DNA of 64,000 bases from an uncultured Patescibacteria group bacterium (GTDB lineage: Bacteria; Patescibacteriota; Microgenomatia; UBA1400; PJMF01), in assembly GCA_905478415.1 (NCBI GenBank), contig CAJQIG010000004.1:203523-267522 (forward strand), given 5' to 3'. Below the pieces are notes generated by a model. That model ran no database searches. It was not told where the DNA came from and was given only the letters and a program-made list of their open reading frames with translations. Position numbers and translations under genes: made by a program. This document shows positions 7,413-21,287 of the stretch, piece by piece; the first letter of the stretch is position 1; each line of letters begins with the position of its first letter.

Positions 7413-8855
7413 ATGAAAACATCAATAAAAATTGTTACACCAGGAAATTTTGCACCACACAAACACTGGTATCCCAAAGCACTTAATGCTCAAATCCACC
7501 CGCTCGTTTCCTACTTTATGAATATGGATAATGAACGAATTATTAGACGCTTTGCATATCTTAACCCATCTGTAAATGCAGATTATTTGAGTACACTATT
7601 GCAATATAAACCAAAGTACTTCAAGTGGGCTGGAGCTGACCTAATGCACACCACCACCACTAAGGGTAAAAAACAAATTGTGGTGATCGAAACAAACTCT
7701 TGTCCTTCTGGCCAAAAATCATTTCCGCTGCTTGATGAAAATAAGGAACAGGGTGGCTACAAGGAACTCATTGAAAAAACATTCCTACCGGTCTGGAAAA
7801 AAAGTCCCATTAAAACAGGTATCACCTGTGTCTTCTATGACAAAAATGAAATGGAAAATAGTGGCTATGCCGCCACAATTGCTGATAGCATTAAAAAACA
7901 AGTCTACTTAGTCGAGTATCATGAAAATGAATATGGCCAAACTGTTCGCTACAACTCTAAAACTAAAACACTTGAACTGCTGCTAAAAGACACATGGACC
8001 CCCATTAGAGCTATCTTCCGCTACGTGACCCAAAAACCTTGGAATCGCCTGCCATTGTTCTCCAAAACTAAAATCTTCAATCCTGTGATAGCTTGCTTAG
8101 CTGGCGGTCGAAACAAGCTCATGGCTTCAAAAGCTTATGACTTCTTAAATGCAGAAATTGCTGAAGCCGGACTTAAAATTCAAACACCAACAACCATTTG
8201 GGATGTTAATAAGAATGAAATTCCCCTCTGGATAGAGAAATTTGGTTACAAAGGAGTCATAAAAATTCCGTACAGCAACGCTGGCCAAGGTGTGTTCACC
8301 ATTGTAAACAAGCAAGAACTGGACGCCTTTATGGAACTTGAAATTCCGTATCAAAAATTTATTATCCAGAGGTTAATTGGGCATTATGCCTGGAGTTCTC
8401 AACATGAAAATGAACTCTTTTTTCAAGTTGGAACCATGCCAAGCAAACGCGGCAACAGCTATGTGTTTGACCTTAGAATGCTCGTCCACCATACCCCAGA
8501 AGGCATGAGGCCTCTTGGTTTATACAGTCGAAAAGCTGGCCTCCCCCTTACCGCAGATATTTCTGGAAAAGAATCAAAAGATGTCCTCATGACCAATCTT
8601 TCTGTCAAAAACGATGATGGTAGCTGGGATAGCGATGTCAGTAGACTGCTCCTCATGGATCAGCGTGACTTCAACAAAATTGGCATGAGCCTCGATGACT
8701 TAATTGAAGGCTATGTCCAGTCGGTACTCTGTGTCATTGCCATTGATAAAATGGCTCAACGATTAGTAAGTACTAAAAAGACATTTAAGAAAAAATTATT
8801 TACCTCACTTAATGATGATGAAACATTACTCAAGGAACTCTTCTCCCATGAGTAA
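7413..8855 (+). CDS. ATP-grasp-like ligase (YheC/YheD/TTL-like), function unknown
   Basis: 480 aa. Contains IKIPYSNAGQGVFTIV and FDLRMLVHH, typical of ATP-grasp B/C subdomains. The stop overlaps the next gene's start (ATGAGTAA). Confidence 0.4.
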   Translation: MKTSIKIVTPGNFAPHKHWYPKALNAQIHPLVSYFMNMDNERIIRRFAYLNPSVNADYLSTLLQYKPKYFKWAGADLMHTTTTKGKKQIVVIETNSCPSGQKSFPLLDENKEQGGYKELIEKTFLPVWKKSPIKTGITCVFYDKNEMENSGYAATIADSIKKQVYLVEYHENEYGQTVRYNSKTKTLELLLKDTWTPIRAIFRYVTQKPWNRLPLFSKTKIFNPVIACLAGGRNKLMASKAYDFLNAEIAEAGLKIQTPTTIWDVNKNEIPLWIEKFGYKGVIKIPYSNAGQGVFTIVNKQELDAFMELEIPYQKFIIQRLIGHYAWSSQHENELFFQVGTMPSKRGNSYVFDLRMLVHHTPEGMRPLGLYSRKAGLPLTADISGKESKDVLMTNLSVKNDDGSWDSDVSRLLLMDQRDFNKIGMSLDDLIEGYVQSVLCVIAIDKMAQRLVSTKKTFKKKLFTSLNDDETLLKELFSHE

Positions 8856-9738
8856 AACACCTTTTGGATGGCTTCTGGTTACAAAACATTCAAACGAGTA
8901 TAAAAAAAGACGTTTGATCGAAGAAGCTGAAAGAGCAGCTATCGATTTGCGAGTTGTCACTCCAGACCAATTTTTACTCCAAAGCACTTCTTCAAAAAAT
9001 GTGATCAGAGACATTCAGACAGGCACTCCAATCGAGGAACTGCCTACATTCGTAATTTCTTTAGTAGTAGTTGAGGAAAAAGATCCACAGGCATTTGTTC
9101 TGATGGAGCACCTTGCTGCTCTAGACTTATTACTCATCAATAACCCAACATCTGTCAGACATGCAAATGACAAAATGGCTACCTATCGAACTGCTGCTAA
9201 GATGCAAATCAGAATACCCACCACTTTTCTGCACATTCCAGGAACACTACTGACTCTGCAGGAGCACATTCAGTATCCCTGTGTCATAAAACCAAATAAA
9301 GGCCTGAAGGGAACAGGAGTAGAACTAGTACAAAATGTAGAAGATCTGACAACACACCTCAATACAGTCTCAGAACCAACACTAGTCCAAGAAGCCATTG
9401 CCGAAAGTAGCGGAAAAGATGTTCGTGTTCTTATGTTGGGAAATAAACCATTAGGATCCATGCTCCGAGAAAGTAACACTTCATTTACTTCAAATATTGC
9501 TACCGGGGGCTCTGCGAAAATGACAACTATTAATCCAAGCTACGTAGACATTGCCACTGCGCTCTTAAAAAAAATGACTATTACCTTCGGCTCAGTGGAC
9601 TTTCTCTATGGGAAAGATGAAATGGTGCTCTGTGAAGTAAATGCTAACCCGGGATTGAAAATGTTTGAAGCCGTCAGCAATCGTAATATCGCAAAAGAAA
9701 TTCTTCTCTACTGCACTAAACAAAGTCATACAAGCTGA
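8848..9738 (+). CDS. RimK-like ATP-grasp ligase (alpha-L-glutamate ligase family)
   Basis: Contains VIKPNKGLKGTGVELV, DVRVLMLGNKPLGSMLRE and MVLCEVNANPG, which are RimK/GshB-type ATP-grasp motifs. The start at 8848 is coupled to the upstream ATP-grasp gene. Confidence 0.6.
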   Translation: MSKTPFGWLLVTKHSNEYKKRRLIEEAERAAIDLRVVTPDQFLLQSTSSKNVIRDIQTGTPIEELPTFVISLVVVEEKDPQAFVLMEHLAALDLLLINNPTSVRHANDKMATYRTAAKMQIRIPTTFLHIPGTLLTLQEHIQYPCVIKPNKGLKGTGVELVQNVEDLTTHLNTVSEPTLVQEAIAESSGKDVRVLMLGNKPLGSMLRESNTSFTSNIATGGSAKMTTINPSYVDIATALLKKMTITFGSVDFLYGKDEMVLCEVNANPGLKMFEAVSNRNIAKEILLYCTKQSHTS

Positions 9739-9783: not shown

Positions 9784-10202
9784 GGGGATGTACTGCTTTG
9801 ACGGAGTATGTTCATTAATATCTGCAGATCTTCTTTGACTAAGAAAGAAGTAAAACAGAGTCAAAACATAATTGCAAATAAAACTGCAAAAGGCATTTTA
9901 GATACTACCACTAATGCATTCGCATCAGTGTTCGGTACTAACTCTGCTCCTGCTTTCATCGCTGCATAAGCTTTGTAACAGGCGTGTATTCTTTTCATCT
10001 CATTGGCGTGAGGGAGTATGCGTAAACCCAGTCAATGTGACAAATAGTTTTCGTTCGTTGAAACTATCATAAGCAAATAGACGAAGATTGTGTCATGAAG
10101 GCTTGTTTGTTTTCCCTCTGACGCAACAACAAGGACAAACTACATCTGTAGATGATATTGGTGCTACTATTTCGGACGCGAGATCATTCCTCGCCATCTC
10201 CA
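9784..10202 (+). ncRNA. ssrA: tmRNA (ssrA), one-piece
   Basis: The 5' end reads GGGGATGTACTGCTTTGACGGAG (compare E. coli GGGGCUGAUUCUGGAUUCGACGGG). The 3' end reads ATTTCGGACGCGAGATCATTCCTCGCCATCTCCACA (compare E. coli AUUUCGGACGCGGGUUCAACUCCCGCCAGCUCCACCA). The 7-bp acceptor GGGGATG/CATCTCC has a G3:U70 alanine identity pair. The T-arm is GCGAG-ATCATTC-CTCGC. An internal open frame ends ...SAPAFIAA-TAA at 9967-9969, typical of a tag peptide. An intrinsic terminator follows. Confidence 0.85.
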
Positions 10203-10212
10203 CAACAATCAA

Positions 10213-10250
10213 AAGAAGAGTCTCGGGCAAGACTCTTCTTTATTTTTTTA
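10213..10250 (+). terminator. Rho-independent terminator of ssrA
   Basis: 11-bp perfect stem AAGAAGAGTCT / AGACTCTTCTT with loop CGGGCA, followed by TATTTTTTTA. Confidence 0.75.
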
Positions 10251-10367: not shown

Positions 10368-10396
10368 TTTACACGTTCACAAATTTAATAAATAAT
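10368..10396 (+). promoter_or_regulatory. Putative sigma70-like promoter for the surface-protein locus
   Basis: TTTACA (10368-10373), 17-nt spacer, AATAAT (10391-10396), about 11 nt before the ATG at 10408. Prediction from sequence only. Confidence 0.3.
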
Positions 10397-10407: not shown

Positions 10408-11436
10408 ATGTCTAATAGAAAACACTTACTACTAGCTGCTGTTTTGTTTGTGGCTTTTTTTGCCCTCTTTCCTAAAAATGCTCAAGCTGCACAACTTACC
10501 GAGGCCTATGTCAGACTTGATCGACTCAAAGCCTCAACCACAACTGGTGGAACGGTATGCGCAAAATTAACAACAACAGGTTCTACAGATACAACTATAA
10601 AAGTAAGCTTTCCTTCAGGTTTTACTGTCGACTCTACAGCTAGCAACTGGACTGTAACCACAACCAATTTGCCGGCAGGTGCCTCAGCCATGCCTGGTAT
10701 TAGCACCGCCTCTTTAGTTGCAAGTCAAGATGTTACTTTTCCAATAACTGACATCTCTTCTGGTGCAACGCTCTACTGTTTCAATTTTACCGGAACCAGT
10801 ACCTTAACAAATCCCACAGCCGGAAATGATAAAACTGGCACCATCACCGTACAGGCAAGTGGACCAACGGAGGTTGATTCTGGTAACTTTGCTCTTTCAA
10901 TTATTTCTGACGACCAGGTAGTTATTACGGCTACCGTTCCAGCTACCTTTAGTGTGGCCCTTGGCACAAACACCCAAGCACTTGGAACGCTGAGTACTGG
11001 TTCTGTTTCGTCTGGATCTGGAGTCTCTGTTACCATTGGCACGAATGCAGGTAATGGTTGGATTGGTTGGGTACTCAGTGCAAATCAAGCACTTGATTCA
11101 GCTACTACAGGTGACACTATCGCTACAACAGGAACTGTTGATGATACTCCAAGTAGTCTCTCTGCTGGTACAGAAGGCTATGTACTTGATGCCGACTTAA
11201 CTACTGATTCTGCAACTGGGGGATCTGGAACTGTAACCATTGATGCCGAGTACTTAGGTGCCGACACTTCTTCGGGAGGTGCGTTGAGTGCAACTTTCAC
11301 TGAGTTTGCTACTGCAAATGGACCAACTGATGGAGATGTCATTACCTTGATCCCTAGAGCTGCCATTTCGGGTCTGACACAAGCTGCCACAGATTATACC
11401 GATACCCTTACCATTGTTGCTGCTGGACACTTCTAG
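10408..11436 (+). CDS. Secreted surface protein, paralog family A (WxL-like?)
   Basis: Sec signal peptide (..FPKNAQA|AQ). The conserved N-domain (YVRLDRLKAS, NWTVTTTNLPAGASAMPG, VTFP, TNPTAG) is shared with 21288..24146. A mid IGWVL motif, the C-terminal motif DYTDTLTIVAAGHF, and a Thr/Gly/Ser-rich composition are shared with 14171..15223. Confidence 0.55.
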   Translation: MSNRKHLLLAAVLFVAFFALFPKNAQAAQLTEAYVRLDRLKASTTTGGTVCAKLTTTGSTDTTIKVSFPSGFTVDSTASNWTVTTTNLPAGASAMPGISTASLVASQDVTFPITDISSGATLYCFNFTGTSTLTNPTAGNDKTGTITVQASGPTEVDSGNFALSIISDDQVVITATVPATFSVALGTNTQALGTLSTGSVSSGSGVSVTIGTNAGNGWIGWVLSANQALDSATTGDTIATTGTVDDTPSSLSAGTEGYVLDADLTTDSATGGSGTVTIDAEYLGADTSSGGALSATFTEFATANGPTDGDVITLIPRAAISGLTQAATDYTDTLTIVAAGHF

Positions 11437-11494
11437 TCTCTTTCTTCTGTTTGTCGTTTACTCTTTTGGCATGGTACGATATATTGAGTAATAG

Positions 11495-12604
11495 ATGATC
11501 AAACGTATGTCTTTCAACTCCAAAAAACTTCTTTTATCTCTTCCTGTCCTGATTATCCTGATCTTTTCAGCCACAACTGTCCGAGCTCAGGAAACTTCAA
11601 CAGCTAGTGCTGAGACAGAAGCAGCTGCAACACCTCCACCAGCCGCCATTCAACCAATAGACTTAACCGTTTCGCCCATCACTCTCAACTTAGCTACTGA
11701 TCCTGGTAAGGAGGTAACTTCGGCCATTAAAGTGTTTAACAATAGCACTGAAAAAGAGTATTTAGAAATCAAGTTAGCTAAGTTCACCGCTGACAGGACT
11801 GGTTCGCGTCCTCAGATTAGAGACTTCGAAGCAAGTGACTCCTATCAAGACTGGCTGCAATTTGAACGGACAACATTCGAAGTGAACCCCGGCGAGTGGG
11901 AAACTATTAATCTTACATTTGCTCCACCTGCAGAGTCGGCTCTGGCTTACTACTATGCAATTATCGTCAAAAGACAAGTTGATACCACTGACGATGCCGC
12001 CACAACCATTGTCACTGGAGCACCTGCCATTTTAGTGCTCGCAAATATTTATTCGCCTAATGCTATTCAAGAGTTACAATTAGTAGATTTTTCTATGAAA
12101 AAAAAATTCTATGAATACTTGCCAGCCGAGTTCGAAATAGATATAAAAAATACAGGTAATATTCATCTCAGCCCACTTGGAAATATATTTATTGACAAAG
12201 GAGATGATAAAGATATTGCCTTACTCTCTATCAATAAAGAAAACGGATTAGTACTTCCTGACTCACAACGAACCTACACAGCAAAATGGACGGAAGGATT
12301 TCCTGTGTACGAACCAGTCATCGAAAATGGTATTGAAAAAAAAGATGAGAAGGGAGAGACAGTCTACAAACTTAACTGGGACCTCTCTAAAATTAATCAG
12401 TTCCGTTTTGGAAAATACACTGCTAACCTTTTATTAGTCTATGATAACGGTGTGCGAGACATTCCCATAGAATCAGTACTGACATTTTGGGTTTTTCCGT
12501 GGAAGATACTATTGGTAGCTCTGCTCCTCGTAGTCTTACTTTCACTGGGAGTGATGTATCCGCTACTTGCGCTCTATGGTAAAGTTAAGAAAAAAGAAAC
12601 ATAA
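11495..12604 (+). CDS. Surface-anchored protein with signal peptide and C-terminal TM anchor (DUF916/DUF3324-like)
   Basis: Signal peptide (..TTVRA|QE). The Ig-like region IDLTVSPITLNLATDPGKEVTSAIKVFNNSTEKEYLEI resembles the conserved core of DUF916 cell-surface proteins. The C-terminal TM is WKILLVALLLVVLLSLGV followed by KVKKKET. Confidence 0.45.
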   Translation: MIKRMSFNSKKLLLSLPVLIILIFSATTVRAQETSTASAETEAAATPPPAAIQPIDLTVSPITLNLATDPGKEVTSAIKVFNNSTEKEYLEIKLAKFTADRTGSRPQIRDFEASDSYQDWLQFERTTFEVNPGEWETINLTFAPPAESALAYYYAIIVKRQVDTTDDAATTIVTGAPAILVLANIYSPNAIQELQLVDFSMKKKFYEYLPAEFEIDIKNTGNIHLSPLGNIFIDKGDDKDIALLSINKENGLVLPDSQRTYTAKWTEGFPVYEPVIENGIEKKDEKGETVYKLNWDLSKINQFRFGKYTANLLLVYDNGVRDIPIESVLTFWVFPWKILLVALLLVVLLSLGVMYPLLALYGKVKKKET

Positions 12605-12610
12605 TTCTAC

Positions 12611-13546
12611 ATGGTATATCGCTTCTGGAATTTTTTTTTAGTAAGTAGCTTACTGTTATTTTTAACAGCAACTGCTCCAATGGCTTTTGCACAAGAAAAA
12701 AACAACTTTTCGCTGACTATTCAACCAGCATACCAAGAAGTTGAGATACCTGAAGATAAGAATAGTGTCGAAACAACGATAACTCTGAAAAATCCTTCTG
12801 ATACAGCCCAACAAATGGAACTATTCGCCTTTGATTTTACCCAAAGTGACCATTTTGGCTCAATTGCTTTGCTCGATGGATTCACCGGCCAGTATGCTCA
12901 TACTCTAGCTTCCTTTTTATCCTTTGAAAAAGACAGTCTCATCATTGCTGCTCAATCTGAAGAAGAAGTCGTCATTAAAATTGAAAATAGAGCTACGCTT
13001 TCTCCTGGAGGTCACTATGCTGCCATAGTAGTTCGAGCAATTGAAGAACAAGGTGCCTCGCAGCAAAAAATACTTCCAGCTGTAACATCGCTTTTGCTGG
13101 TCAGAAAAAAAAGTGGTGAACGTATTAATCTATCCCTAAAAGAACTTAGTTGGCAACCAAAAGCACTGGTAACTCACTTTCCAGAAAAAATTGACTTGAC
13201 TTTCGAGAATGGGGGAAATGTCCATGTTGTTCCAAGGGGCACCGCAGCTATTACAGACATTTTTGGCCGCGTCGTGTTTCAGGGAACAGTTAACGAATCA
13301 AGTTTGTACCTCTTACCAGGAACAATGAGAACAATTTCTACAAACTTACAACAGTCAAGAACTTTTTTTCCACTGATGTTTTATTCTTTAGAAATACATG
13401 GGAGATCAAATGTTGGTGAAGCTACTTTTTCTTCCGAAACTAGTTTTCTGTACGTTGACTGGAAATTTGTTGTGCTTTTGTTGATCATTGTGGGAGCCAT
13501 TATTTTCAGAACGGTACAAAAGAAGAAAAGAAATGAAAAAAAATAA
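12611..13546 (+). CDS. Second signal-peptide plus C-terminal-anchor surface protein (DUF916/DUF3324-like paralog)
   Basis: Signal peptide (..MAFA|QE). Contains SLTIQPAYQEVEIPEDKNSVETTITLKNPSDTAQQMEL, the same pattern as the previous gene. The C-terminal TM is FVVLLLIIVGAIIF followed by a KKKRNEKK tail. Confidence 0.45.
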   Translation: MVYRFWNFFLVSSLLLFLTATAPMAFAQEKNNFSLTIQPAYQEVEIPEDKNSVETTITLKNPSDTAQQMELFAFDFTQSDHFGSIALLDGFTGQYAHTLASFLSFEKDSLIIAAQSEEEVVIKIENRATLSPGGHYAAIVVRAIEEQGASQQKILPAVTSLLLVRKKSGERINLSLKELSWQPKALVTHFPEKIDLTFENGGNVHVVPRGTAAITDIFGRVVFQGTVNESSLYLLPGTMRTISTNLQQSRTFFPLMFYSLEIHGRSNVGEATFSSETSFLYVDWKFVVLLLIIVGAIIFRTVQKKKRNEKK

Positions 13547-14147
13547 CGTTCCCATCACCAGTATTCTGTTCATCAGTGCTGCTATTAGCATCAGCATTGG
13601 TATTTTTTGGTATCTAAGTGGAAACTCTGAGCAAAGAGTCACGGGCGGTCTTTCTGATAGAACCCGGGAGTTCTTAACGTCTCAAAAAGCCAATACTGAT
13701 TCTCTTTGGCCAGACTACACTTTCGAAGAAGGTACTGAACAAAAACAATACCAATCAGTTGAAACTAATTGTTTTACTCTCGAAATGCCCATTCCTGTCA
13801 GGAATCTGAAAACAAGTATCGAACAAGAAAGCTGTTTAGTAAAAGCTACAATTGATACTCCACATGCATTTTTAACTATTAGTTCAGAGCCTGCTCCCAG
13901 CATCCACTCTCTATCAGATCTCTCTGCTGTCAAACTACGCACAACTCAGCCAGATGTGTACACCCAAGAAAAAAGAGAAGAACTTGATAGCCCCAATAGT
14001 ATTGTTTTTTCTACTACCACAGAGGTCGTGTATTTTTACTTAGAAAATGAAACCATTACTACGGTTGCTCTGTATGACCTAGCTACCATTAATTCAGATA
14101 CGTACCAACTCTTAACCAAAGTAGTGAAGTCAGTTGGTATCCAGTAA
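13533..14147 (+). CDS. Membrane-anchored hypothetical protein (N-terminal TM)
   Basis: ATG at 13533 gives MKKNNVPITSILFISAAISISIGIFWYL (TM) followed by a soluble domain. It overlaps the previous gene's end by 14 nt. The track ORF starts at 13488, but that lies inside the upstream gene. Confidence 0.4.
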   Translation: MKKNNVPITSILFISAAISISIGIFWYLSGNSEQRVTGGLSDRTREFLTSQKANTDSLWPDYTFEEGTEQKQYQSVETNCFTLEMPIPVRNLKTSIEQESCLVKATIDTPHAFLTISSEPAPSIHSLSDLSAVKLRTTQPDVYTQEKREELDSPNSIVFSTTTEVVYFYLENETITTVALYDLATINSDTYQLLTKVVKSVGIQ

Positions 14148-14170
14148 AGAAATCTATATACTAAGAACGA

Positions 14171-15223
14171 ATGAAAAAACCAGTTATACTCATGAGCCTG
14201 ATGTTACTAGCCTTTCCGGCCAGCACTAACTATGCTCTAAAAAGTTTTGATTTTAATGCCGGTGGTGATAATTCCTTGAGTTCTTCAAGCTATGCCATGG
14301 AAGGTGCAGTGGGTGAACTAGGGAGCGATCCACTTTCTTCACTCAACTACACTACGCTTCCCGGACTCCTGTATACACAAATGGTGAACACACCATCAGC
14401 CCCAACTGTTACCAATGCTGGAGACTTCACAAATAAACTGTTAGTCACTATTGCTACTGAAGGCAACCCCTCTGACACTACCTATGCCATTGCTGTTTCT
14501 GATGATAACTTTGTCACCACAGAGTATCTGCAATCAGACAATACGGTGGGTGCTACACTCGGAGCTGAAGACTGGCAAACCTATGCCGATTGGGGCGGAG
14601 GTAGTGGAGAGTTTGCAGTTGGGTTAGTTCCTAACACAACCTATTACTTCAAAGTTAAAGCTGCCCAAGGAGAATTTACTGAAGGCCCCTGGGGTCCGGT
14701 AGCATCAGTAGCAACTTCAGCACTGAGTATTTCATTTGATATTGATGTATCTGCAACGGACCAAGAGACAGCAGCTCCATACGCTGTTGCACTAGGAGAT
14801 CTGCAATCGGGAACCATTGTCACCAGTACCGAAAAAATATGGGTTGACCTAGCTACAAATGCACCAGGAGGAGGCTTTGTGTATGTCTTTGGTTCCAATG
14901 GAGGTTTGTTGAGTCAAAAAACAAGTCATACTATTTCAGCCGTGTCAGGAAATTTAAGTAGCTTAGATGAAGGTTTTGGAATCCAATACAACAGCCTTTC
15001 AGAAAGTAGTGGCGGACCAATGGTGGTTTCATCTCCATATGACGGAGCGGGAGAAGTTGTCGGTACTATCACCACAAACCCACAAGAGATTTTCAATACC
15101 TCTGCCACTGCAATTGCTGGCGGAAGAGCTTCATTTGTGACCAAAGCTAAAATTGATGACTTAACTCCAGCTGCAGCTGACTACACTGACACCATTACTA
15201 TTATTTCGACTGCTAGTTTCTAA
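14171..15223 (+). CDS. Secreted surface protein, paralog family A (WxL-like?)
   Basis: Signal peptide MKKPVILMSLMLLAFPAS. The C-terminus AAADYTDTITIISTASF and the mid KIWVDLATN motif are shared with 10408..11436. Thr/Gly-rich. Confidence 0.5.
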   Translation: MKKPVILMSLMLLAFPASTNYALKSFDFNAGGDNSLSSSSYAMEGAVGELGSDPLSSLNYTTLPGLLYTQMVNTPSAPTVTNAGDFTNKLLVTIATEGNPSDTTYAIAVSDDNFVTTEYLQSDNTVGATLGAEDWQTYADWGGGSGEFAVGLVPNTTYYFKVKAAQGEFTEGPWGPVASVATSALSISFDIDVSATDQETAAPYAVALGDLQSGTIVTSTEKIWVDLATNAPGGGFVYVFGSNGGLLSQKTSHTISAVSGNLSSLDEGFGIQYNSLSESSGGPMVVSSPYDGAGEVVGTITTNPQEIFNTSATAIAGGRASFVTKAKIDDLTPAAADYTDTITIISTASF

Positions 15224-15927
15224 TGAACAAGCACCATTCTGGACCCTTTTTTTTTAGATCTTTGCACTTTCTTTTGATTGTAGGTCTTTTTTTTATCTTG
15301 GGACCTCTCTTTCAAGTTTCTGCTTCTTCAGTAGGACCAAAAACTTCACCAGTTTTAGCCGGAACTGTCAAAGTTACTGCTGAAGTAGCTGTTTCACCTC
15401 AACAAAAGTTTTTGATAGCAAAAAACTCATCTCTCATACTACAAAATCAGGGAATACGTGTTGGAAAACCCACTAAACTACACATTACCCTCAGGGGGTA
15501 CCAAAACCAACTCAAACCTTTTCAGGATTTTTCTATAAAAATTGTGGATGCTGATTTTGGTGTCCTTCAAAGCTACTTAGCAAAGACTGACCACACAGGT
15601 ACTGCCACACTTACTTTTATTCCAAATGCTCTCAGTCAGAGAGGTTCTTTTATACAAATTGATGTATTTAATGATAGATATACAACCACACAAGCTATTA
15701 CTTTCAGTACTCAGTATATACAGAACCTACCAAAACTACAAAATAGTTCAGAAAAATCCTTAGTTTTAAATCCTGATAATCGGGTTATATTCGTATTCTC
15801 TACCAGAGGTAAAACTGCTATGCTTACAAGAGGTAGTTATGTATTTTTTACAACCAAAAACACCAGCTCTAAAGGTAATCCGTATCTTTTTGCTGCTCGT
15901 GATGGCCCTTGGACTGTTACTACTTAA
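15223..15927 (+). CDS. Secreted hypothetical protein
   Basis: The start overlaps the upstream stop (TAATG). Hydrophobic signal region LHFLLIVGLFFILGPLFQVSASS. Confidence 0.4.
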   Translation: MNKHHSGPFFFRSLHFLLIVGLFFILGPLFQVSASSVGPKTSPVLAGTVKVTAEVAVSPQQKFLIAKNSSLILQNQGIRVGKPTKLHITLRGYQNQLKPFQDFSIKIVDADFGVLQSYLAKTDHTGTATLTFIPNALSQRGSFIQIDVFNDRYTTTQAITFSTQYIQNLPKLQNSSEKSLVLNPDNRVIFVFSTRGKTAMLTRGSYVFFTTKNTSSKGNPYLFAARDGPWTVTT

Positions 15928-17926
15928 GAACCAGGCAAAGGCGGCCACTGGTATTTACAAAACTATAAACTTCCAAGGAAAAGTCGTAAATAGTGATGGC
16001 ACCAACGTTGCGGATGGAGATTATGATTTTGTCTTTTCTCTCTACACCGTTGACACCGCCGGCTCAGCAGTCTGGACCGAATCACGTACTACCGTTAACC
16101 AAGTCACCGTCACAGACGGTGTTTTTCGTGTAGCTTTGGGTGAGGTAACTACCTTACCCGGATCAATTGACTTTAATACTGATAATATTTACTTGGGTAT
16201 CAACTTCAATAGTGATGGAGAAATGACTCCTCGAGTTCGCTTCACTGCTGTCCCCTATGCTTTTAATGCTCTCAAGGTTGCAGGACTTACTGTCACTGAT
16301 ACCACCGGAACATTAACTGTTCCAGATGCCAGCACCATTGCCTTTTCAGGTGCCTTCGACACCACCTTTACGACTACCAACACAACTACTGTCACCCTTC
16401 CAACTACAGGAACGCTGGCAACTTTGGCAGGAACAGAAACGTTTACCAATAAAACTATTGGTTCAACCGGACTCACCTTTTCTGGCGCAACGACTGACAT
16501 TACCACAGGAACAAATGAACATTTTGTTATCTCTCCGAATGGCACTGGGAATGTTGGAATTGGATCAACAACACCAACCCAATTCTTTGAGGTCCAAAAA
16601 GATACAAATGGATATGCAGCAATGTTAATTGATAACGAAACAAATGACACACTCGCTGCATCAGGATACTTCTTTGAAAACTCTACTAGAGGTGGTGGTT
16701 TTGGACTTTATTCTGATAACTTTACAGGGGGTGGAGGCTTAAGTCACTTGGCGGGTAGAATGGCTACGGCTGGATACAATGGGTTAGAACCACTTGGTAT
16801 AGATCTTATTGCAAACCATGCTAGTGGAGATATCCGATTGTTTACAGGCGGTATTGCAACTTCGAATGAGCGTATGCGAATTGACTCTGCTGGAAATGTG
16901 GGAATTGGTACCACCACAACGAGCAGCTACAAACTTGATGTAACTGGCACTATCCGAGCCACTGGCAGCGTCCTCAGCTCTGATATTGATGCAGATACAG
17001 CCGGGGCTCTTACGATCGGTAACACCACGGCCACTGCAGTCTCTATCTGTAACTCTGCCGCCTGCGACACAATTTCCATTGGCAATAATGCTGACGCAGA
17101 TACCATTACTATTGGTGACTCTCCAGATGGACTAACAATCAGTAGTTCTGGCTTCAACTTAACTTCTGGAGGAGCAATTTCTGGTATCTCTACTTTTGCA
17201 AGTAGCGGTGACTGGACTTGGTCAGCTACCACTCCAACCTTAACACTCAACTCGAGCGAGACCCTCACAATAACAGATGGCACTGATAGTTTTGTGGTTA
17301 ACACAGCCAGTTCATTATTCTCACTTTCTGACGGCAGCAACAGCTTTACCTTTGATGCTGACACTGGGCCTAACTACACTGGAACTGCACGACCAACAAA
17401 AAAGATTGTCATTTCGCCAGAATATGCTGGTGGGACTTTAACAACCTTCTATGGAGCTGGTACCGATGCTTCAATAACTGGAGTCATGACTGCCGATGCA
17501 GAAACTACCGCCACTGACAGCCTCCGCACCTACTATGAATGGAGTAGTTCTCAGGGCTCACTAAACTACTACACCGTCGTAGTCAGGATAACACTACCTG
17601 AAGATTTCAGTGCATGGGCCCCTTCTAACGCCCTACAAGTTGACTTCACCACTGAATCAACAAACTCAGCAAATAACTTACTTAGCGCCTATGTATATCT
17701 AAGTAGTGACTCAACAACCGCAGTAGCCTCAGACGTAAGTAATGCAGCTGCTGGAGCCGAAACTTGGGAACAAATCACTGTTGATGACAGTGTTCTAGAT
17801 GACGCTGCTGCTCCAGAGTGGGATGCTGCTGGAGAAACGGCGCTCATTTACCTCAGAATGGGATCAACTGGCAACAATTTTGCGAGAGTTGGCGACATCA
17901 CCTTAAATTATGTTGCCCGGTTCTAG
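15839..17926 (+). CDS. Large secreted Thr/Gly-rich fibrous protein (adhesin/fibre-like)
   Basis: 695 aa. The N-terminal signal-like region is KVIRIFLLLVMALGLLLLKNQAKA|ATG. About 25% Thr plus Gly, with repeated TTxT/GT motifs. The 5' end overlaps the upstream gene; an alternative start is 15902. Confidence 0.5.
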   Translation: MYFLQPKTPALKVIRIFLLLVMALGLLLLKNQAKAATGIYKTINFQGKVVNSDGTNVADGDYDFVFSLYTVDTAGSAVWTESRTTVNQVTVTDGVFRVALGEVTTLPGSIDFNTDNIYLGINFNSDGEMTPRVRFTAVPYAFNALKVAGLTVTDTTGTLTVPDASTIAFSGAFDTTFTTTNTTTVTLPTTGTLATLAGTETFTNKTIGSTGLTFSGATTDITTGTNEHFVISPNGTGNVGIGSTTPTQFFEVQKDTNGYAAMLIDNETNDTLAASGYFFENSTRGGGFGLYSDNFTGGGGLSHLAGRMATAGYNGLEPLGIDLIANHASGDIRLFTGGIATSNERMRIDSAGNVGIGTTTTSSYKLDVTGTIRATGSVLSSDIDADTAGALTIGNTTATAVSICNSAACDTISIGNNADADTITIGDSPDGLTISSSGFNLTSGGAISGISTFASSGDWTWSATTPTLTLNSSETLTITDGTDSFVVNTASSLFSLSDGSNSFTFDADTGPNYTGTARPTKKIVISPEYAGGTLTTFYGAGTDASITGVMTADAETTATDSLRTYYEWSSSQGSLNYYTVVVRITLPEDFSAWAPSNALQVDFTTESTNSANNLLSAYVYLSSDSTTAVASDVSNAAAGAETWEQITVDDSVLDDAAAPEWDAAGETALIYLRMGSTGNNFARVGDITLNYVARF

Positions 17927-17939
17927 CACAAAAGATACT

Positions 17940-20900
17940 ATGCTCAAGAAAAAAATATTATTCCAAATTTCAAGTGTATTCTTACTCTTGGCTATTCTCT
18001 TAGGATATGTGCTCTTCAAAGGCACTCAGCCAGTCTATGCAAACATCTTTCATTTTTGGTGGAACGAAAACATTACTGAAATTGTCATCCCCAAAGATAA
18101 TTTTGATACCGATGAAAAAATCATTATGCATGTTGATGGGGCAGATAAAAAAAACATCACTGTTGAAGTAAAAGACCCTGCTGGTCATAGCATTGAGATA
18201 GACACCCGACTTTCTAACTCTTCAGATGGCACTGTCGTCACACTACTTCCACCAGAAACAATAACTCCAGGAAAATATACTGTAGAAGTGAAAAATAAAA
18301 AAGGAACGGTATTGAATACTAGTTTCAGTTGGGGAGTACTTGCTATAAATGTCAACCAAGCTCACTACAGACCTAATGATGAAGCTCAACTTTCGTTTGC
18401 TGTCTTGGATGAAAAAGGTGACATGGTCTGTGACGCCGACCTTGAGCTACAAATCATTCAAAAGGCCACCGGAATTATAGACACACTAACAACAAAAGAT
18501 GGCGATATTACCACTAACCCAGAATGTGCTATATATGGCGTCACATATAACCCAGACTATGAAGCCACCTACACTGTTGGAACTCCGGGACAATACACAA
18601 TGGAGCTAACAGCCACAACCACAAATGGTACATACACCGTTACAGACTATTTTGAAGTTGCCGAAACCCTCGACTTTATAGTCGAACGACAAACAGCAAC
18701 TAGAATTTACCCTGTGGTCAGCTACCCCGTTGAAATACGTATTATTCCTAATAACGATTTTAAAGGACAAATTATTGAGACTGTACCCAATACCTTTACT
18801 ATCGAAAAAACAGAAACAGCTGCCCTACAACCAAATCTCATTACGGACAGCTCTTCTACTGAGAAACAACTACTTTGGAATGTAGACTTACAAAAAGGGG
18901 TTGAGTATACTCTGGCTTATACCTACGACGCACCTGACATCAGTCCAGAACTCTTCAGCATTGGCCCCCTGCAAATCCTTGATACTACTAGTGACAAAAT
19001 CTTTTCCGAAAAAAGAAAGTGGAAAATTGCTGTCGATGCCGTCGCCTTTGATGCAGTCACAACTGACAGCGCTAGTGTTGGAAGAAGTAGTGCGTCATTC
19101 TCACATACTACAACTGGATCAGATCGGCTGCTACTCGTTTTTGTCTCTCTCTTTCATGGTAACGCTACTCCAGATGTAACTTCAATTACCTATAATGGCG
19201 TCAGCATGACTCTGGAAACTGAACTAGAAGTTGTTTCAAGCCGCCATATTCGAACATTTGTGTACAGCCTTGTAAACCCAGCCTCAGGATCAAATACTGT
19301 TGCTGTCACCTATGCTCAGTCGACACAGGTTGCAGATGCGGTTATGGCAATCAGCTACACTGGGGTAGATCAAACAACACCAATTCCAACAACTGCAACA
19401 AACTCTTCAACATCAGCTGCTGACCCCACAATTGACATAACCACTACAACTGCCAACTCCCTCATTGTTGCAGGTGCTACAGTTCGTGGTGGTGACACCG
19501 CCCCATTTACTCCAGGTACCGGTAGTACTGAACGCTGGGACTTTGTCACCGATACTAATGCTAATGTTGACCTTGGAACCTGGGGAGGTGAAGAATCAGC
19601 AGCCACAACTGGTACGTATACTGTTGATGCCACGGCCACCAATTCAGACTTTTACTCCATGGTTGCAGTTGAGGTAGCAGAAGTGGCAGCAGCTGGAGGT
19701 ATTACGGTGTCTGGTAATGCCTATCAATCTGGAACCACGGCTTTAACCGACTGTGATGGGACCACTCAAAACATAGCACTCCGAGCTGGAAGTACTACCT
19801 ATACCACCACCTGTAATGCTTCAACTGGTGCATGGTCCATTGGTAGCGTAACGCAACCAAGCTCAGGTGACGGACTCGTTGTTTGGATTGATGGCGAAAC
19901 TACTGACGGAGCACTTGTCACCCGCTACGATGGCACAGGCGACTCAACTGGAAATATTTTTTATGCAAATGCGCTCACTTTTACAAGTGATGATAGTACC
20001 GCTGTTAACAACGCTGATGCAGACACCTATGACAATGCTGATGATGCTGATATCCCCTACACTGTCTCCACCAATGCTTTGACCCTTAATAGTGGCCATG
20101 AACTACTTGTCTACACAGGTAAAACCTACGACCCAAATGGAACTGTTACCACTAATGCAACCGGTGGTAATCTTCATGTTGATGATAGCTCCACCGCATA
20201 TCTCGACACTGCCACTTCAACTATTGGTGCTGATGTTATAGTTGATAACGGAGCAACACTTAATATTGATGCCACAACAAACATTTCTGGTGGAGATATC
20301 ACCTTAACTGGAACAGGCCTTGTTTCCACTACTACTGGGACTCCAACTACAACTATTTCTGGAGCAGGCACTATAGGCGGCGGCACTGGCTCACTCACCT
20401 TCTATAACCTTGCGCTTGCAGGGACCGGTACCACAACACTAAACGCACCACTCACTACTGCTAATAACCTCACGATTGGTGACGGCACCAATGCTCATAC
20501 GCTAGATGTAGAAACAAACGACAAGGCTGTCGACACCAATGGAGCATTCACTATTGCTGCCAATGGAACCTATACTGCCTCATCCACAACAGATGTAACT
20601 GTACAAGGAAACTTTACCAATGGGGGCATTCTTACTGAAGGAACAAGCACCATTGTCCTAGACGGATCTACCACAGCTAATCTTGATTCTGGTTGCAGCA
20701 CCGTATCCACATGTACAACCAACAACCTGTATAACCTTACCTTGAATAAGTCGACGTCAGGAACTACGGTAACGCTTCTCAACACAGGGCTGAGAGTTAG
20801 CAATACGCTTGAAATTACTACTGGAACTCTCAACCAATCAACCCTCGATGTGCAACTGGAGGGCAGCTCAGCGCTGGGAGTCACGAGCAACGGTACCTGG

Positions 20901-21254
20901 TCAAATACATCTACCGGCAACCTTACCTTAGGTGGATCTGTTTCAATTAATGGCACTATGACCCTTCAGGGTAATGGGGCCAGTTGTGGTGATACCGACA
21001 GTATTGTCATCAGCTCAACGTCTGGTGGAACACAACAGACCTGGAATGGAACTGGCACAACCACTATTAATGATGTGACCATCTCAGACCAGTCAGGAAC
21101 GATGTTGATCAATGCCCTCAGTTCAACTAATGCCGGTAATGTAAACACAAACTGGAGTATCTTCGGTGGCTGTAGTACTACTCCCGACCCCAACGAGCTC
21201 CTTCGCCATGGCGAATGGTTTTCTGGTGAGGTGAATCAAAAATTCAGTTTTTGA
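17940..21254 (+). CDS. Giant secreted beta-helix-like repeat protein (adhesin-like)
   Basis: About 1100 aa. Signal and TM region MLKKKILFQISSVFLLLAILLGYVLF. Long runs of T/N/G-rich short repeats (TLNxxTxxxGG, NGTxT) are reminiscent of parallel beta-helix adhesins. Confidence 0.5.
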   Translation: MLKKKILFQISSVFLLLAILLGYVLFKGTQPVYANIFHFWWNENITEIVIPKDNFDTDEKIIMHVDGADKKNITVEVKDPAGHSIEIDTRLSNSSDGTVVTLLPPETITPGKYTVEVKNKKGTVLNTSFSWGVLAINVNQAHYRPNDEAQLSFAVLDEKGDMVCDADLELQIIQKATGIIDTLTTKDGDITTNPECAIYGVTYNPDYEATYTVGTPGQYTMELTATTTNGTYTVTDYFEVAETLDFIVERQTATRIYPVVSYPVEIRIIPNNDFKGQIIETVPNTFTIEKTETAALQPNLITDSSSTEKQLLWNVDLQKGVEYTLAYTYDAPDISPELFSIGPLQILDTTSDKIFSEKRKWKIAVDAVAFDAVTTDSASVGRSSASFSHTTTGSDRLLLVFVSLFHGNATPDVTSITYNGVSMTLETELEVVSSRHIRTFVYSLVNPASGSNTVAVTYAQSTQVADAVMAISYTGVDQTTPIPTTATNSSTSAADPTIDITTTTANSLIVAGATVRGGDTAPFTPGTGSTERWDFVTDTNANVDLGTWGGEESAATTGTYTVDATATNSDFYSMVAVEVAEVAAAGGITVSGNAYQSGTTALTDCDGTTQNIALRAGSTTYTTTCNASTGAWSIGSVTQPSSGDGLVVWIDGETTDGALVTRYDGTGDSTGNIFYANALTFTSDDSTAVNNADADTYDNADDADIPYTVSTNALTLNSGHELLVYTGKTYDPNGTVTTNATGGNLHVDDSSTAYLDTATSTIGADVIVDNGATLNIDATTNISGGDITLTGTGLVSTTTGTPTTTISGAGTIGGGTGSLTFYNLALAGTGTTTLNAPLTTANNLTIGDGTNAHTLDVETNDKAVDTNGAFTIAANGTYTASSTTDVTVQGNFTNGGILTEGTSTIVLDGSTTANLDSGCSTVSTCTTNNLYNLTLNKSTSGTTVTLLNTGLRVSNTLEITTGTLNQSTLDVQLEGSSALGVTSNGTWSNTSTGNLTLGGSVSINGTMTLQGNGASCGDTDSIVISSTSGGTQQTWNGTGTTTINDVTISDQSGTMLINALSSTNAGNVNTNWSIFGGCSTTPDPNELLRHGEWFSGEVNQKFSF

Positions 21255-21287
21255 GGATAGTCGTTCATTCCTCTTTGGGAAATCATA

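What the first reader, a model, noticed from the sequence alone, without database searches (positions are those of the whole stretch)
10408..11436. Paralogous secreted family with shared N-terminal and C-terminal modules (10408, 14171, and the N-terminus of 21288..24146)
The sequence shows directly that the N-domain of 10408 (YVRLDRLKAS...NWTVTTTNLPAGASAMPG...VTFP...TNPTAG) recurs in the 952-aa minus-strand protein (YIRLDRAAAG...NFTTSVTNLPAGVSAWPG...VTFP...TNPSAG). The last 17 residues of 10408 (AATDYTDTLTIVAAGHF) are almost identical to the end of 14171 (AAADYTDTITIISTASF). Both also carry a W-x-(x)-L motif (IGWVL, KIWVDL) upstream.

This is domain shuffling within one locus. The C-terminal motif looks like a Trp-less variant of the distal WxL motif (Y-x-G-x-I-T-W-T-L).
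Basis: seen in the sequence. Interest (0 to 1): 0.7.

Follow-up and report, generated by a model that had tools for sequence, protein, structure and literature searches.

The report
CPR donor-strand pilus subunits sharing modules
The three secreted proteins really do share domains, and they are best read as the shaft, tip and membrane-anchored base subunits of the chaperone-assembled 'Pam' pilus recently described in ultrasmall CPR bacteria, so this is a new example of a known system.

Summary
The N-terminal half of the 342-aa protein (10408..11436), including a short linker, recurs at the start of the 952-aa minus-strand protein (35% identity, E 9e-21). Its C-terminal half recurs in the 350-aa protein at 14171 (30% identity, E 3e-9; profile-profile 98.9%). 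No other ORF in the window carries either module.

The locus is a conserved Patescibacteria (CPR) operon:
- a two-domain pilin;
- an acceptor-only subunit whose N-terminus weakly matches NCBIfam PamT;
- a tail-fibre-like protein.

This matches the Pam pilus described in a 2026 bioRxiv preprint. The module sharing fits donor-strand assembly: CTD only is the cap, NTD+linker+CTD is the shaft, and NTD+linker with membrane helices is the base.

Profile tests do not support the C-terminal domain as a WxL domain (hhalign P 0.14-0.33). The chaperone-like partners, however, are clear homologues of the WxL-interacting protein (DUF916/DUF3324) of Gram-positive bacteria. I found this link in neither paper I checked.

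Verdict: a new member of a known kind, of moderate interest.

The parts
10368..10396 (+). Promoter-like site (TTTACA-17-AATAAT) just upstream of the pilin gene.
   Evidence: This is a consensus match only; the number of such sites in the region is not above chance.
10408..11436 (+). Shaft pilin, 342 aa: signal peptide (res 1-27), NTD beta-sandwich (28-166), linker or donor strand (167-180), CTD (181-342) ending ...DYTDTLTIVAAGHF-COOH.
   Evidence: AF2 gives pLDDT 84, two all-beta domains and an unstructured linker. There are 1,271 homologues; those with reliable organism labels are CPR, and the top 120 are 58-84% identical. Conservation peaks at the linker and the C-terminal strand.
10906..10947 (+). 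Linker segment (res 167-180, SDDQVVITATVPAT), the inferred donor strand.
   Evidence: It is among the most conserved segments, yet AF2 gives it low confidence and no secondary structure in the monomer. The motif (N/D)DQ[IV]x[IV][TS]AxVP is shared with the 952-aa family.
11495..12604 (+). Membrane-anchored PapD-like chaperone (WxLIP/DUF916-DUF3324 homologue), 369 aa, with a C-terminal TM helix at residues 336-368.
12611..13546 (+). Second membrane-anchored chaperone-family protein, 311 aa, with a C-terminal TM helix. It may be a second chaperone or a PamR-like anchor.
   Evidence: hhalign against the 11495 family: 99.9%, E 3e-32. Against WxLIP proteins: 99.6%, E 4e-24. TM segment at 276-305. 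It occurs in single copy in related loci.
13488..14147 (+). Small protein with an N-terminal membrane anchor and unknown role. The likely start is the internal ATG near 13533.
   Evidence: Hydrophobic segment at 20-45. Found in only 9 of the 79 related loci, all of which share this window's gene order (tip gene downstream of the chaperones); at least five of the nine rank among the more distant loci by pilin identity. No family hit.
14171..15223 (+). Acceptor-only subunit, the inferred tip or cap, 350 aa: PamT-like N-terminal segment, FN3-like domain, and CTD (res about 186-350) ending ...DYTDTITIISTASF-COOH. It has no pilin NTD and no linker motif.
   Evidence: CTD homology. NCBIfam PamT hit on residues 12-69 at E 1e-4, with family members reaching 9.5e-9. 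Weak FN3 hits. There are 70 such proteins in the 79 loci.
15223..15927 (+). Secreted 234-aa protein of unknown role, in the same operon.
   Evidence: N-terminal hydrophobic segment. No family hit.
15839..17926 (+). Tail-fibre-like protein, 695 aa. The first 240 residues or so are conserved and the C-terminus varies between loci.
   Evidence: NCBIfam Bdello_MAT_N, E 5.8e-8. Present next to the pilus genes in 52 of 79 loci, with lengths up to about 2,380 aa among complete ORFs. The Pam preprint reports a tail-fibre-like gene in the neighbourhood.
17910..21254 (+). Large secreted protein, 1,114 aa, last gene of the + strand run. Whether it belongs to the system is uncertain.
   Evidence: Weak MG2, filamin and other Ig-like hits. 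A homologue was seen in only one related locus.
21288..24146 (-). Donor-only subunit, the inferred base or anchor, 952 aa: signal peptide, pilin-type NTD plus linker (res about 30-180, window 23607..24059), Ig/FN3 and CarboxypepD_reg domains, and TM helices at 744-769 and 898-947. It has no CTD.
   Evidence: BLASTP E 9e-21. NTD+linker HMM E 2e-26, covering HMM positions 2-152 of 155. Linker motif conserved. Pfam domains. TM segments. The same architecture occurs in L070, L074, L075 and L078.

Best explanation
The locus 10408..24146 encodes a Pam-type pilus of a Patescibacteria (CPR) bacterium. All subunits are exported by Sec.

Inferred mechanism. The 342-aa protein is the shaft pilin. Its conserved linker (res 167-180), lying between the N-terminal beta-sandwich and the C-terminal domain, is donated as a beta-strand into the C-terminal domain of the neighbouring subunit (donor-strand exchange). 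The membrane-tethered PapD-like chaperones 11495 and 12611 hold the C-terminal domains until exchange happens. No outer-membrane usher is needed in a monoderm cell.

The shared modules follow from this logic:
- The 350-aa protein has the acceptor domain but no donor linker, so it can only sit at the distal end, as a cap or adhesin.
- The 952-aa protein has the pilin N-domain and the donor linker but no acceptor domain, and it has membrane helices. It can only end a filament at the cell-proximal side and tie it to the membrane.

Shown here: the module homologies, the two-domain fold of the pilin, the chaperone fold and its membrane helix, and the conserved operon.

Inferred here: the strand exchange itself, the polarity of the filament, and the cap and base roles.
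For: Module homologies are specific to these three proteins.

Pilin. AF2 predicts two beta domains joined by a linker that is unstructured in the monomer. That linker is among the most conserved segments, together with the C-terminal strand. The Pam preprint reports the same for PamA and PamB.

C-terminus. The protein ends in F in 92/95 pilins and 65/67 tip proteins, with D-Y exactly 14 residues from the end.

Architectures. Only three occur across the 79 loci: 97 with NTD+linker+CTD, 70 with CTD only, and 4 large proteins plus 1 fragment with NTD+linker only.

Links to Pam. The tip family matches the NCBIfam CPR_pilus_PamT model over its N-terminal 70 residues or so, down to E 9.5e-9. The operon order (tip, pilin x1-2, chaperone x1-3, fibre) is conserved in Moraniibacteriota, Saccharimonadia, WWE3, Andersenbacteria and Paceibacteria. 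The preprint 10.64898/2026.03.03.709456 describes exactly these parts: NTD-linker-CTD pilins, TM-anchored FimC/PapD-like chaperones, an acceptor-only tip, a membrane-anchored terminator and a tail-fibre-like neighbour.
Against: - No direct comparison with PamA or PamB was possible. Their structures (PDB 25PZ, 25QA) are not in the libraries and I had no sequences.
- The PamT hit is far below the model's cut-off (22-35 bits against 240) and covers only the N-terminus.
- I could not inspect the model for an open groove, and no multimer prediction was possible.
- The 952-like protein was seen in only a few related loci (7 by BLAST, 4 of them with the N-domain), so it is not a universal part.
- The preprint's terminator PamR is a different, RbmA-like protein, which 12611 may resemble.
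Confidence: 0.72

Rival explanations
1. A WxL/Csc-type cell-surface complex rather than a filament. The C-terminal domain would be a divergent WxL domain that sticks non-covalently to the cell wall. The 11495 and 12611 proteins would be WxLIP-type membrane anchors that bind and present it, and the variable N-terminal domains would contact the host.
For: - WxL clusters also pair a small WxL protein and a large WxL protein with one WxLIP.
- A co-linear, low-confidence alignment puts G-W and Y-T-x-T-L-T in register.
- A Trp-less WxL-like protein lies next to a DUF916 gene in Arthrobacter.
Against: - Pfam WxL gives no hit in 75 members.
- A WxL HMM shows no enrichment.
- Deep profile-profile comparison gives P 0.14-0.33.
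- The distal Trp and the residues after it are absent, and the protein ends 14 residues after D-Y.
- CPR proteins of this architecture have been seen as filaments by cryo-EM.
- The two readings may not exclude each other if WxL proteins are themselves held by strand complementation.
Confidence: 0.15
2. Unrelated surface proteins (an S-layer or adhesins) that share Ig-like domains through ordinary duplication, with no assembly relationship between them.
For: - The domains are generic beta-sandwiches by fold search.
- The pilin is very highly conserved and probably abundant, as S-layer proteins are.
Against: - The strict three-architecture pattern.
- The conserved linker shared only with the donor-only protein.
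- The fixed C-terminal end.
- The constant pairing with PapD-like chaperones.
Confidence: 0.08
3. The similarity is only compositional (Thr/Gly/Ser-rich low complexity).
For: The sequences are rich in T, S, G and A.
Against: - Composition-adjusted BLASTP gives E 9e-21 and 3e-9.
- The module HMMs hit no other T/S-rich surface protein in the window, including the fibre and the 1,114-aa protein.
- There are dozens of invariant columns.
Confidence: 0.01

Closest known systems
Pam pili of Candidatus Mycosynbacter amalyticus (PamA/PamB pilins, PamC/PamD chaperones, PamT tip, PamR anchor; bioRxiv 10.64898/2026.03.03.709456)
   Same: - CPR-restricted and Sec-exported.
[quoted passage not shown]
- Conservation is highest at the linker and the C-terminal domain.
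- Two PapD/FimC-like chaperones each carry a C-terminal TM helix.
- There is an acceptor-only tip subunit, with a weak match to NCBIfam PamT.
- A tail-fibre-like gene lies nearby.
- There is no usher.
   Different: - Only one shaft pilin gene here, where M. amalyticus has PamA, PamB and PamE.
- The tip carries an FN3-like insert (350 aa against a 241-position PamT model).
- The candidate base subunit is a 952-aa multi-domain membrane protein with a full pilin N-domain, not an RbmA-like PamR.
- No ATP synthase genes were seen next to the operon in the part of the window I annotated.
- Sequence similarity to Pam models is marginal, and direct comparison with PamA/PamB could not be done.
WxL / Csc cell-surface clusters of Bacillota (WxL domain PF13731, with WxLIP = DUF916 PF06030 + DUF3324 PF11797 + TM helix)
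   Same: - The partner protein is homologous: two Ig-like domains plus a C-terminal TM helix.
- Clusters hold a 'domain-only' client and an 'N-terminal extension + C-terminal domain' client.
- AF2 in PMC10599100 predicts that a DUF916 strand inserts into the WxL domain, which resembles chaperone strand complementation.
   Different: - The C-terminal domain does not match WxL profiles.
- It lacks the distal Trp-x-Leu and any residues after it.
- No LPXTG CscD-like protein is present.
- Here there is a conserved inter-domain linker, and a donor-only protein shares it.
Chaperone-usher pili of Gram-negative bacteria (Pap/Fim, CFA/I, Csu)
   Different: - There is no usher and no outer membrane.
- The chaperones are tethered by a TM helix.
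- The donor strand is an internal linker between two domains, not an N-terminal extension.
- The subunits have two domains.

Membership tests
Pam (CPR-type) pilus system | [quoted passage not shown] | tested here: met
   AF2 shows beta domains at 32-166 and 181-340 and a linker at 167-180 with no structure in the monomer. The signal peptide ends AQA|A. Whether the CTD is an incomplete Ig fold could not be checked.
Pam (CPR-type) pilus system | FimC/PapD-like chaperones that carry a C-terminal transmembrane helix, encoded in the operon. | tested here: met
Pam (CPR-type) pilus system | Tip subunit PamT: an acceptor domain without a linker (NCBIfam NF058579, cut-off 240 bits). | tested here: inconclusive
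   14171 has the CTD and lacks the NTD and linker. It scores only 21.7 bits, on residues 12-69; relatives reach 35 bits. It is not an equivalog member but is partly homologous.
Pam (CPR-type) pilus system | Sequence or structural similarity to PamA/PamB (PDB 25PZ, 25QA). | not testable with these tools
   No PDB sequence or fold match. The entries are not in the libraries, and the preprint and its supplement give no sequences.
Pam (CPR-type) pilus system | Filament assembled by donor-strand exchange. | not testable with these tools
   No multimer prediction was available and there are no experimental data. The support is indirect.
Pam (CPR-type) pilus system | Restricted to CPR, with a conserved operon that includes a tail-fibre-like gene. 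| tested here: met
   Reliably labelled homologues are Patescibacteria classes. Several MAG titles name other phyla, which I did not verify.
WxL domain (Pfam PF13731) | A match to the WxL profile at or above the gathering score (25 bits). | tested here: not met
   No hit at E<=1 in 31 pilin and 44 tip family members. My own WxL HMM shows no enrichment. hhalign of deep alignments gives P 0.14-0.33.
WxL domain (Pfam PF13731) | Two Trp-x-Leu motifs, the distal one in Y-x-x-x-L-T-W-x-L followed by a short tail. | tested here: not met
   The pilin has G-W-x-x-W-V but its distal motif is D-Y-T-D-T-L-T-I-V with no Trp. The tip has no Trp at the proximal position. The protein ends 14 residues after D-Y.
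WxL / Csc cluster | An adjacent WxLIP (DUF916 + DUF3324 + TM helix). | tested here: met
Classical chaperone-usher pilus | An outer-membrane usher, and subunits with an N-terminal extension donor strand. | tested here: not met
   No usher-like protein in the locus. The conserved strand is internal.
Sortase-assembled Gram-positive pilus | A C-terminal LPXTG sorting signal and a pilus sortase gene. | tested here: not met
   No C-terminal LPXTG. No sortase among the locus or flanking proteins scanned.

The most novel reading that the evidence does not exclude
Pam pili of CPR bacteria and the WxL/Csc surface clusters of Bacillota and Actinomycetota may be branches of one ancient monoderm system, built on a membrane-tethered PapD-like chaperone (WxLIP = PamC/D-like). 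The C-terminal domain here would then be a very divergent, Trp-less WxL domain. WxL proteins of Enterococcus, Listeria and lactobacilli would be held, or even polymerised, by donor-strand complementation rather than simply binding peptidoglycan. The chaperone half of this is shown here. The client-domain half is not.
Probability: 0.3. Interest if true: 0.75.

Novelty: new member of a known kind. Interest (0 to 1): 0.5.

Why it matters
CPR bacteria are a large, mostly uncultured part of bacterial diversity that lives attached to other microbes, and their attachment organelles are only now being identified. This locus shows the Pam-type operon in a lineage whose proteins carry no annotation. Its three architectures give a simple sequence rule for finding shaft, cap and base subunits in metagenomes: NTD+linker+CTD, CTD only, NTD+linker only.

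It also connects the Pam chaperones to WxLIP (DUF916/DUF3324). That family is found in Enterococcus, Listeria and lactobacilli and is linked to virulence and gut adhesion. The connection suggests a testable assembly mechanism for WxL surface proteins.

Tried and rejected
- Pfam and NCBIfam scans of the nine locus proteins gave no family for the pilin.
- PDB sequence searches with the pilin profile, two Saccharimonadia pilins and the chaperone profile found nothing useful.
- The AFDB library was not available, so WxL models could not be compared by fold.
- No solved WxL domain exists in the PDB copy.
- tblastn of the CTD against plasmids found no match.
- The CTD-as-WxL idea was tested five ways, all negative:
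  - narrow profile-profile comparison;
  - comparison with an Arthrobacter intermediate, P 0.045 over 30 columns;
  - HMM against ORFs;
  - Pfam;
  - deep profile-profile comparison after collecting 150 WxL representatives.
- Type IV pilin, sortase pilus and classical chaperone-usher readings were rejected: no class III signal peptide, no LPXTG or sortase, and no usher.
- The promoter and terminator scan was not above chance.

Full report
**1. Observation**

The three ORFs are at the stated coordinates. BLASTP with composition-based statistics aligns residues 4-179 of the 342-aa protein (10408..11436) with residues 6-180 of the 952-aa minus-strand protein at 35% identity, E 9e-21. It aligns residues 191-342 with residues 207-350 of the 350-aa protein (14171..15223) at 30% identity, E 3e-9.

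I built family alignments (A1 pilin, A3 tip) and searched module HMMs against every six-frame ORF of the window:
- The NTD+linker module hits only 10408 and the 952-aa protein (E 2e-26).
- The C-terminal module hits only 10408 and 14171 (E 4.5e-13 and 2.8e-14).
- Nothing else scores below E 0.05, although the window holds several other Thr/Ser-rich surface proteins.

The similarity is positional and specific. The last 17 residues are 10/17 identical. The two 'W-x-L' strings are not at aligned positions.

**2. What the locus is**

All nine proteins from 10408 to 24146 have an N-terminal hydrophobic signal. The pilin has 1,271 detectable homologues. Those with reliable names are Patescibacteria, and the top 120 are 58-84% identical, which is unusually conserved for a surface protein.

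A scan of one genome per species returned 79 loci from Moraniibacteriota, Saccharimonadia, WWE3, Andersenbacteria and Paceibacteria. They hold the same gene set: a 14171-like gene, one or two pilin genes, one to three 11495-like genes, one 12611-like gene, and a fibre gene whose first 240 codons or so are conserved.

NCBIfam gave the first lead. The N-terminus of 14171 weakly matches 'CPR-type pilus protein PamT', and relatives reach E 9.5e-9. That led to the preprint 10.64898/2026.03.03.709456. It reports cryo-EM structures of filaments from Ca. Mycosynbacter amalyticus built from PamA and PamB. The parts it describes are:
- FimC/PapD-like chaperones PamC and PamD with a C-terminal TM helix;
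- an acceptor-only tip, PamT;
- a membrane-anchored terminator, PamR;
- a tail-fibre-like gene nearby.

**3. Tests of that reading**

*Pilin.* AF2 with 31 homologues gives pLDDT 84 and two all-beta domains (32-166 and 181-340). They are joined by residues 167-180, which have no secondary structure and low confidence in the monomer. Yet in 95 family members the linker (169-182) and the C-terminal strand (331-342) are the most conserved segments. The preprint reports the same for PamA and PamB.

The C-terminus is fixed. F is the last residue in 92/95 pilins and 65/67 tip proteins, and D-Y lies exactly 14 residues from the end.

*Architectures.* In the 79 loci only three kinds of protein carry the modules:
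- 97 with NTD+linker+CTD (about 340-400 aa);
- 70 with the CTD only (about 350-420 aa);
- 4 large proteins (718-941 aa) plus one fragment with NTD+linker only.

The linker motif (N/D)DQ[IV]x[IV][TS]AxVP is conserved in pilins and in the donor-only proteins. After it the two families diverge.

**4. Mechanism**

Most likely this is chaperone-assisted donor-strand exchange without an usher. The linker of each incoming pilin completes the C-terminal domain of the previous subunit. On this reading:
- 14171 (PamT-like N-terminus + FN3-like domain + acceptor domain) can only cap the distal end and may carry adhesive function.
- The 952-aa protein (pilin N-domain + donor linker, then Ig/FN3/CarboxypepD_reg domains and TM helices at 744-769 and 898-947) can only terminate the proximal end and anchor it in the membrane.

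This polarity and these roles are inferred, not shown. An alternative is that 12611 is the PamR-like anchor. In that case the 952-aa protein, seen in only a few related loci, would be an accessory base subunit.

One further point is speculative. Domain 1 of the chaperone ends in a strand (res 150-160) with invariant YYY and an invariant Arg160. That is roughly where PapD, from my knowledge of that family, has its G1 donor strand and the Lys112 that binds the subunit's C-terminal carboxylate. I could not superpose the structures.

**5. Limits**

- PamA/PamB coordinates (25PZ, 25QA) are not in the libraries, and I had no sequences. Direct membership could not be tested.
- No multimer modelling was possible.

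**6. The WxL idea**

*Client domain: tested and not supported.*
- Pfam WxL gives no hit in 75 members.
- I fetched WxL clusters from Lactiplantibacillus and Enterococcus plasmids and collected WxL homologues and 150 diverse representatives.
- hhalign of narrow and deep alignments gives P 0.1-0.6.
- A WxL HMM does not rank pilin or tip proteins above background among 2,863 ORFs.
- A forced co-linear alignment does place G-W and Y-T-x-T-L-T in register over 155 columns, but it is not significant.
- An Arthrobacter plasmid has a small, distally Trp-less WxL-like protein (Pfam WxL E 5.5e-4, below cut-off) next to a DUF916 gene. Its link to the CPR domain is weak (P 0.045).

*Partner protein: a clear link.*
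- 8 of 40 members of the 11495 family hit Pfam WxLIP_PGBD (DUF916), one of them above the gathering score (37.7 against 27.3 bits).
- hhalign of the 11495 and 12611 families against DUF916/WxLIP proteins gives 99.1% and 99.6% over both domains.
- The WxLIP paper (PMC10599100) reports an AF2 prediction that a DUF916 strand inserts into the WxL domain, but it does not use the word chaperone.
- The Pam preprint does not mention WxL or DUF916.

So the CPR chaperones and WxLIP belong to one family. Whether the client domains are also related stays open.

**7. Verdict**

The finding is real. It is explained as a new member of the recently described Pam pilus system, with a clear module logic. The WxL reading is partly right for the system and unproven for the domain. 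Interest is moderate, and the WxLIP link is the part worth following.

Noticed in passing
window 9784..10241: A tmRNA gene (Rfam 95.7 bits) lies at 9784..10205. A 12-13 bp hairpin with a T-run follows at 10212..10241, directly upstream of the pilin promoter-like site.
   Followed up: no
window 15839..17926; L019, L034, L049, L058, L072 and others: The fibre protein matches the N-terminal domain of the Bdellovibrio 'mosaic adhesive trimer' fibre family (E 5.8e-8). Across related loci about the first 240 residues are conserved, while the rest varies from about 350 to more than 2,000 residues. This looks like a swappable host-recognition fibre next to the pilus genes.
   Followed up: partly
L082:5221-5727 (Arthrobacter caoxuetaonis plasmid NZ_CP099467.1): A 169-aa secreted protein lies next to a DUF916 gene. 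It has the proximal G-W motif but ends ...NYTATIVHSVI, with no distal Trp. It scores below the Pfam WxL cut-off (20.4 against 25 bits). Trp-less WxL-like clients therefore exist outside Bacillota.
   Followed up: partly
L083:4898-10644 (Deinococcus psychrotolerans plasmid NZ_CP034185.1): A DUF916-like protein without an obvious C-terminal TM helix sits between small secreted proteins and a 1,058-aa protein rich in beta-strand-like repeats. This could be a chaperone-usher-like version of the same chaperone family in a diderm.
   Followed up: no
L001-L008, L012, L014 and others (record titles): Many third-party-assembled MAG contigs that carry this CPR-type operon are titled 'uncultured Pseudomonadales', 'Bdellovibrionales' or 'Gammaproteobacteria'. 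One protein is labelled Undibacterium. These are probably wrong taxonomic labels or mis-binned contigs, which I did not verify.
   Followed up: no
window 10408..11436 (Cys51, Cys124): The pilin has exactly two cysteines, both invariant in the family and both in the N-domain, so a disulfide is likely. The Pam pilins also have paired cysteines. The homologous N-domain of the 952-aa protein lacks them.
   Followed up: no
window 7413..9738: A 480-aa protein with no Pfam match overlaps the start of a RimK-like ATP-grasp ligase gene just upstream of the tmRNA. The pair also occurs on other contigs that carry the identical pilin.
   Followed up: no
window 14171..15223, residues 16-77 and 240-276: An HMM of the tip protein's PamT-like N-terminal segment also picks up a second, weak match inside its own C-terminal domain (residues 240-276). 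This hints at an internal repeat or strand mimicry.
   Followed up: no
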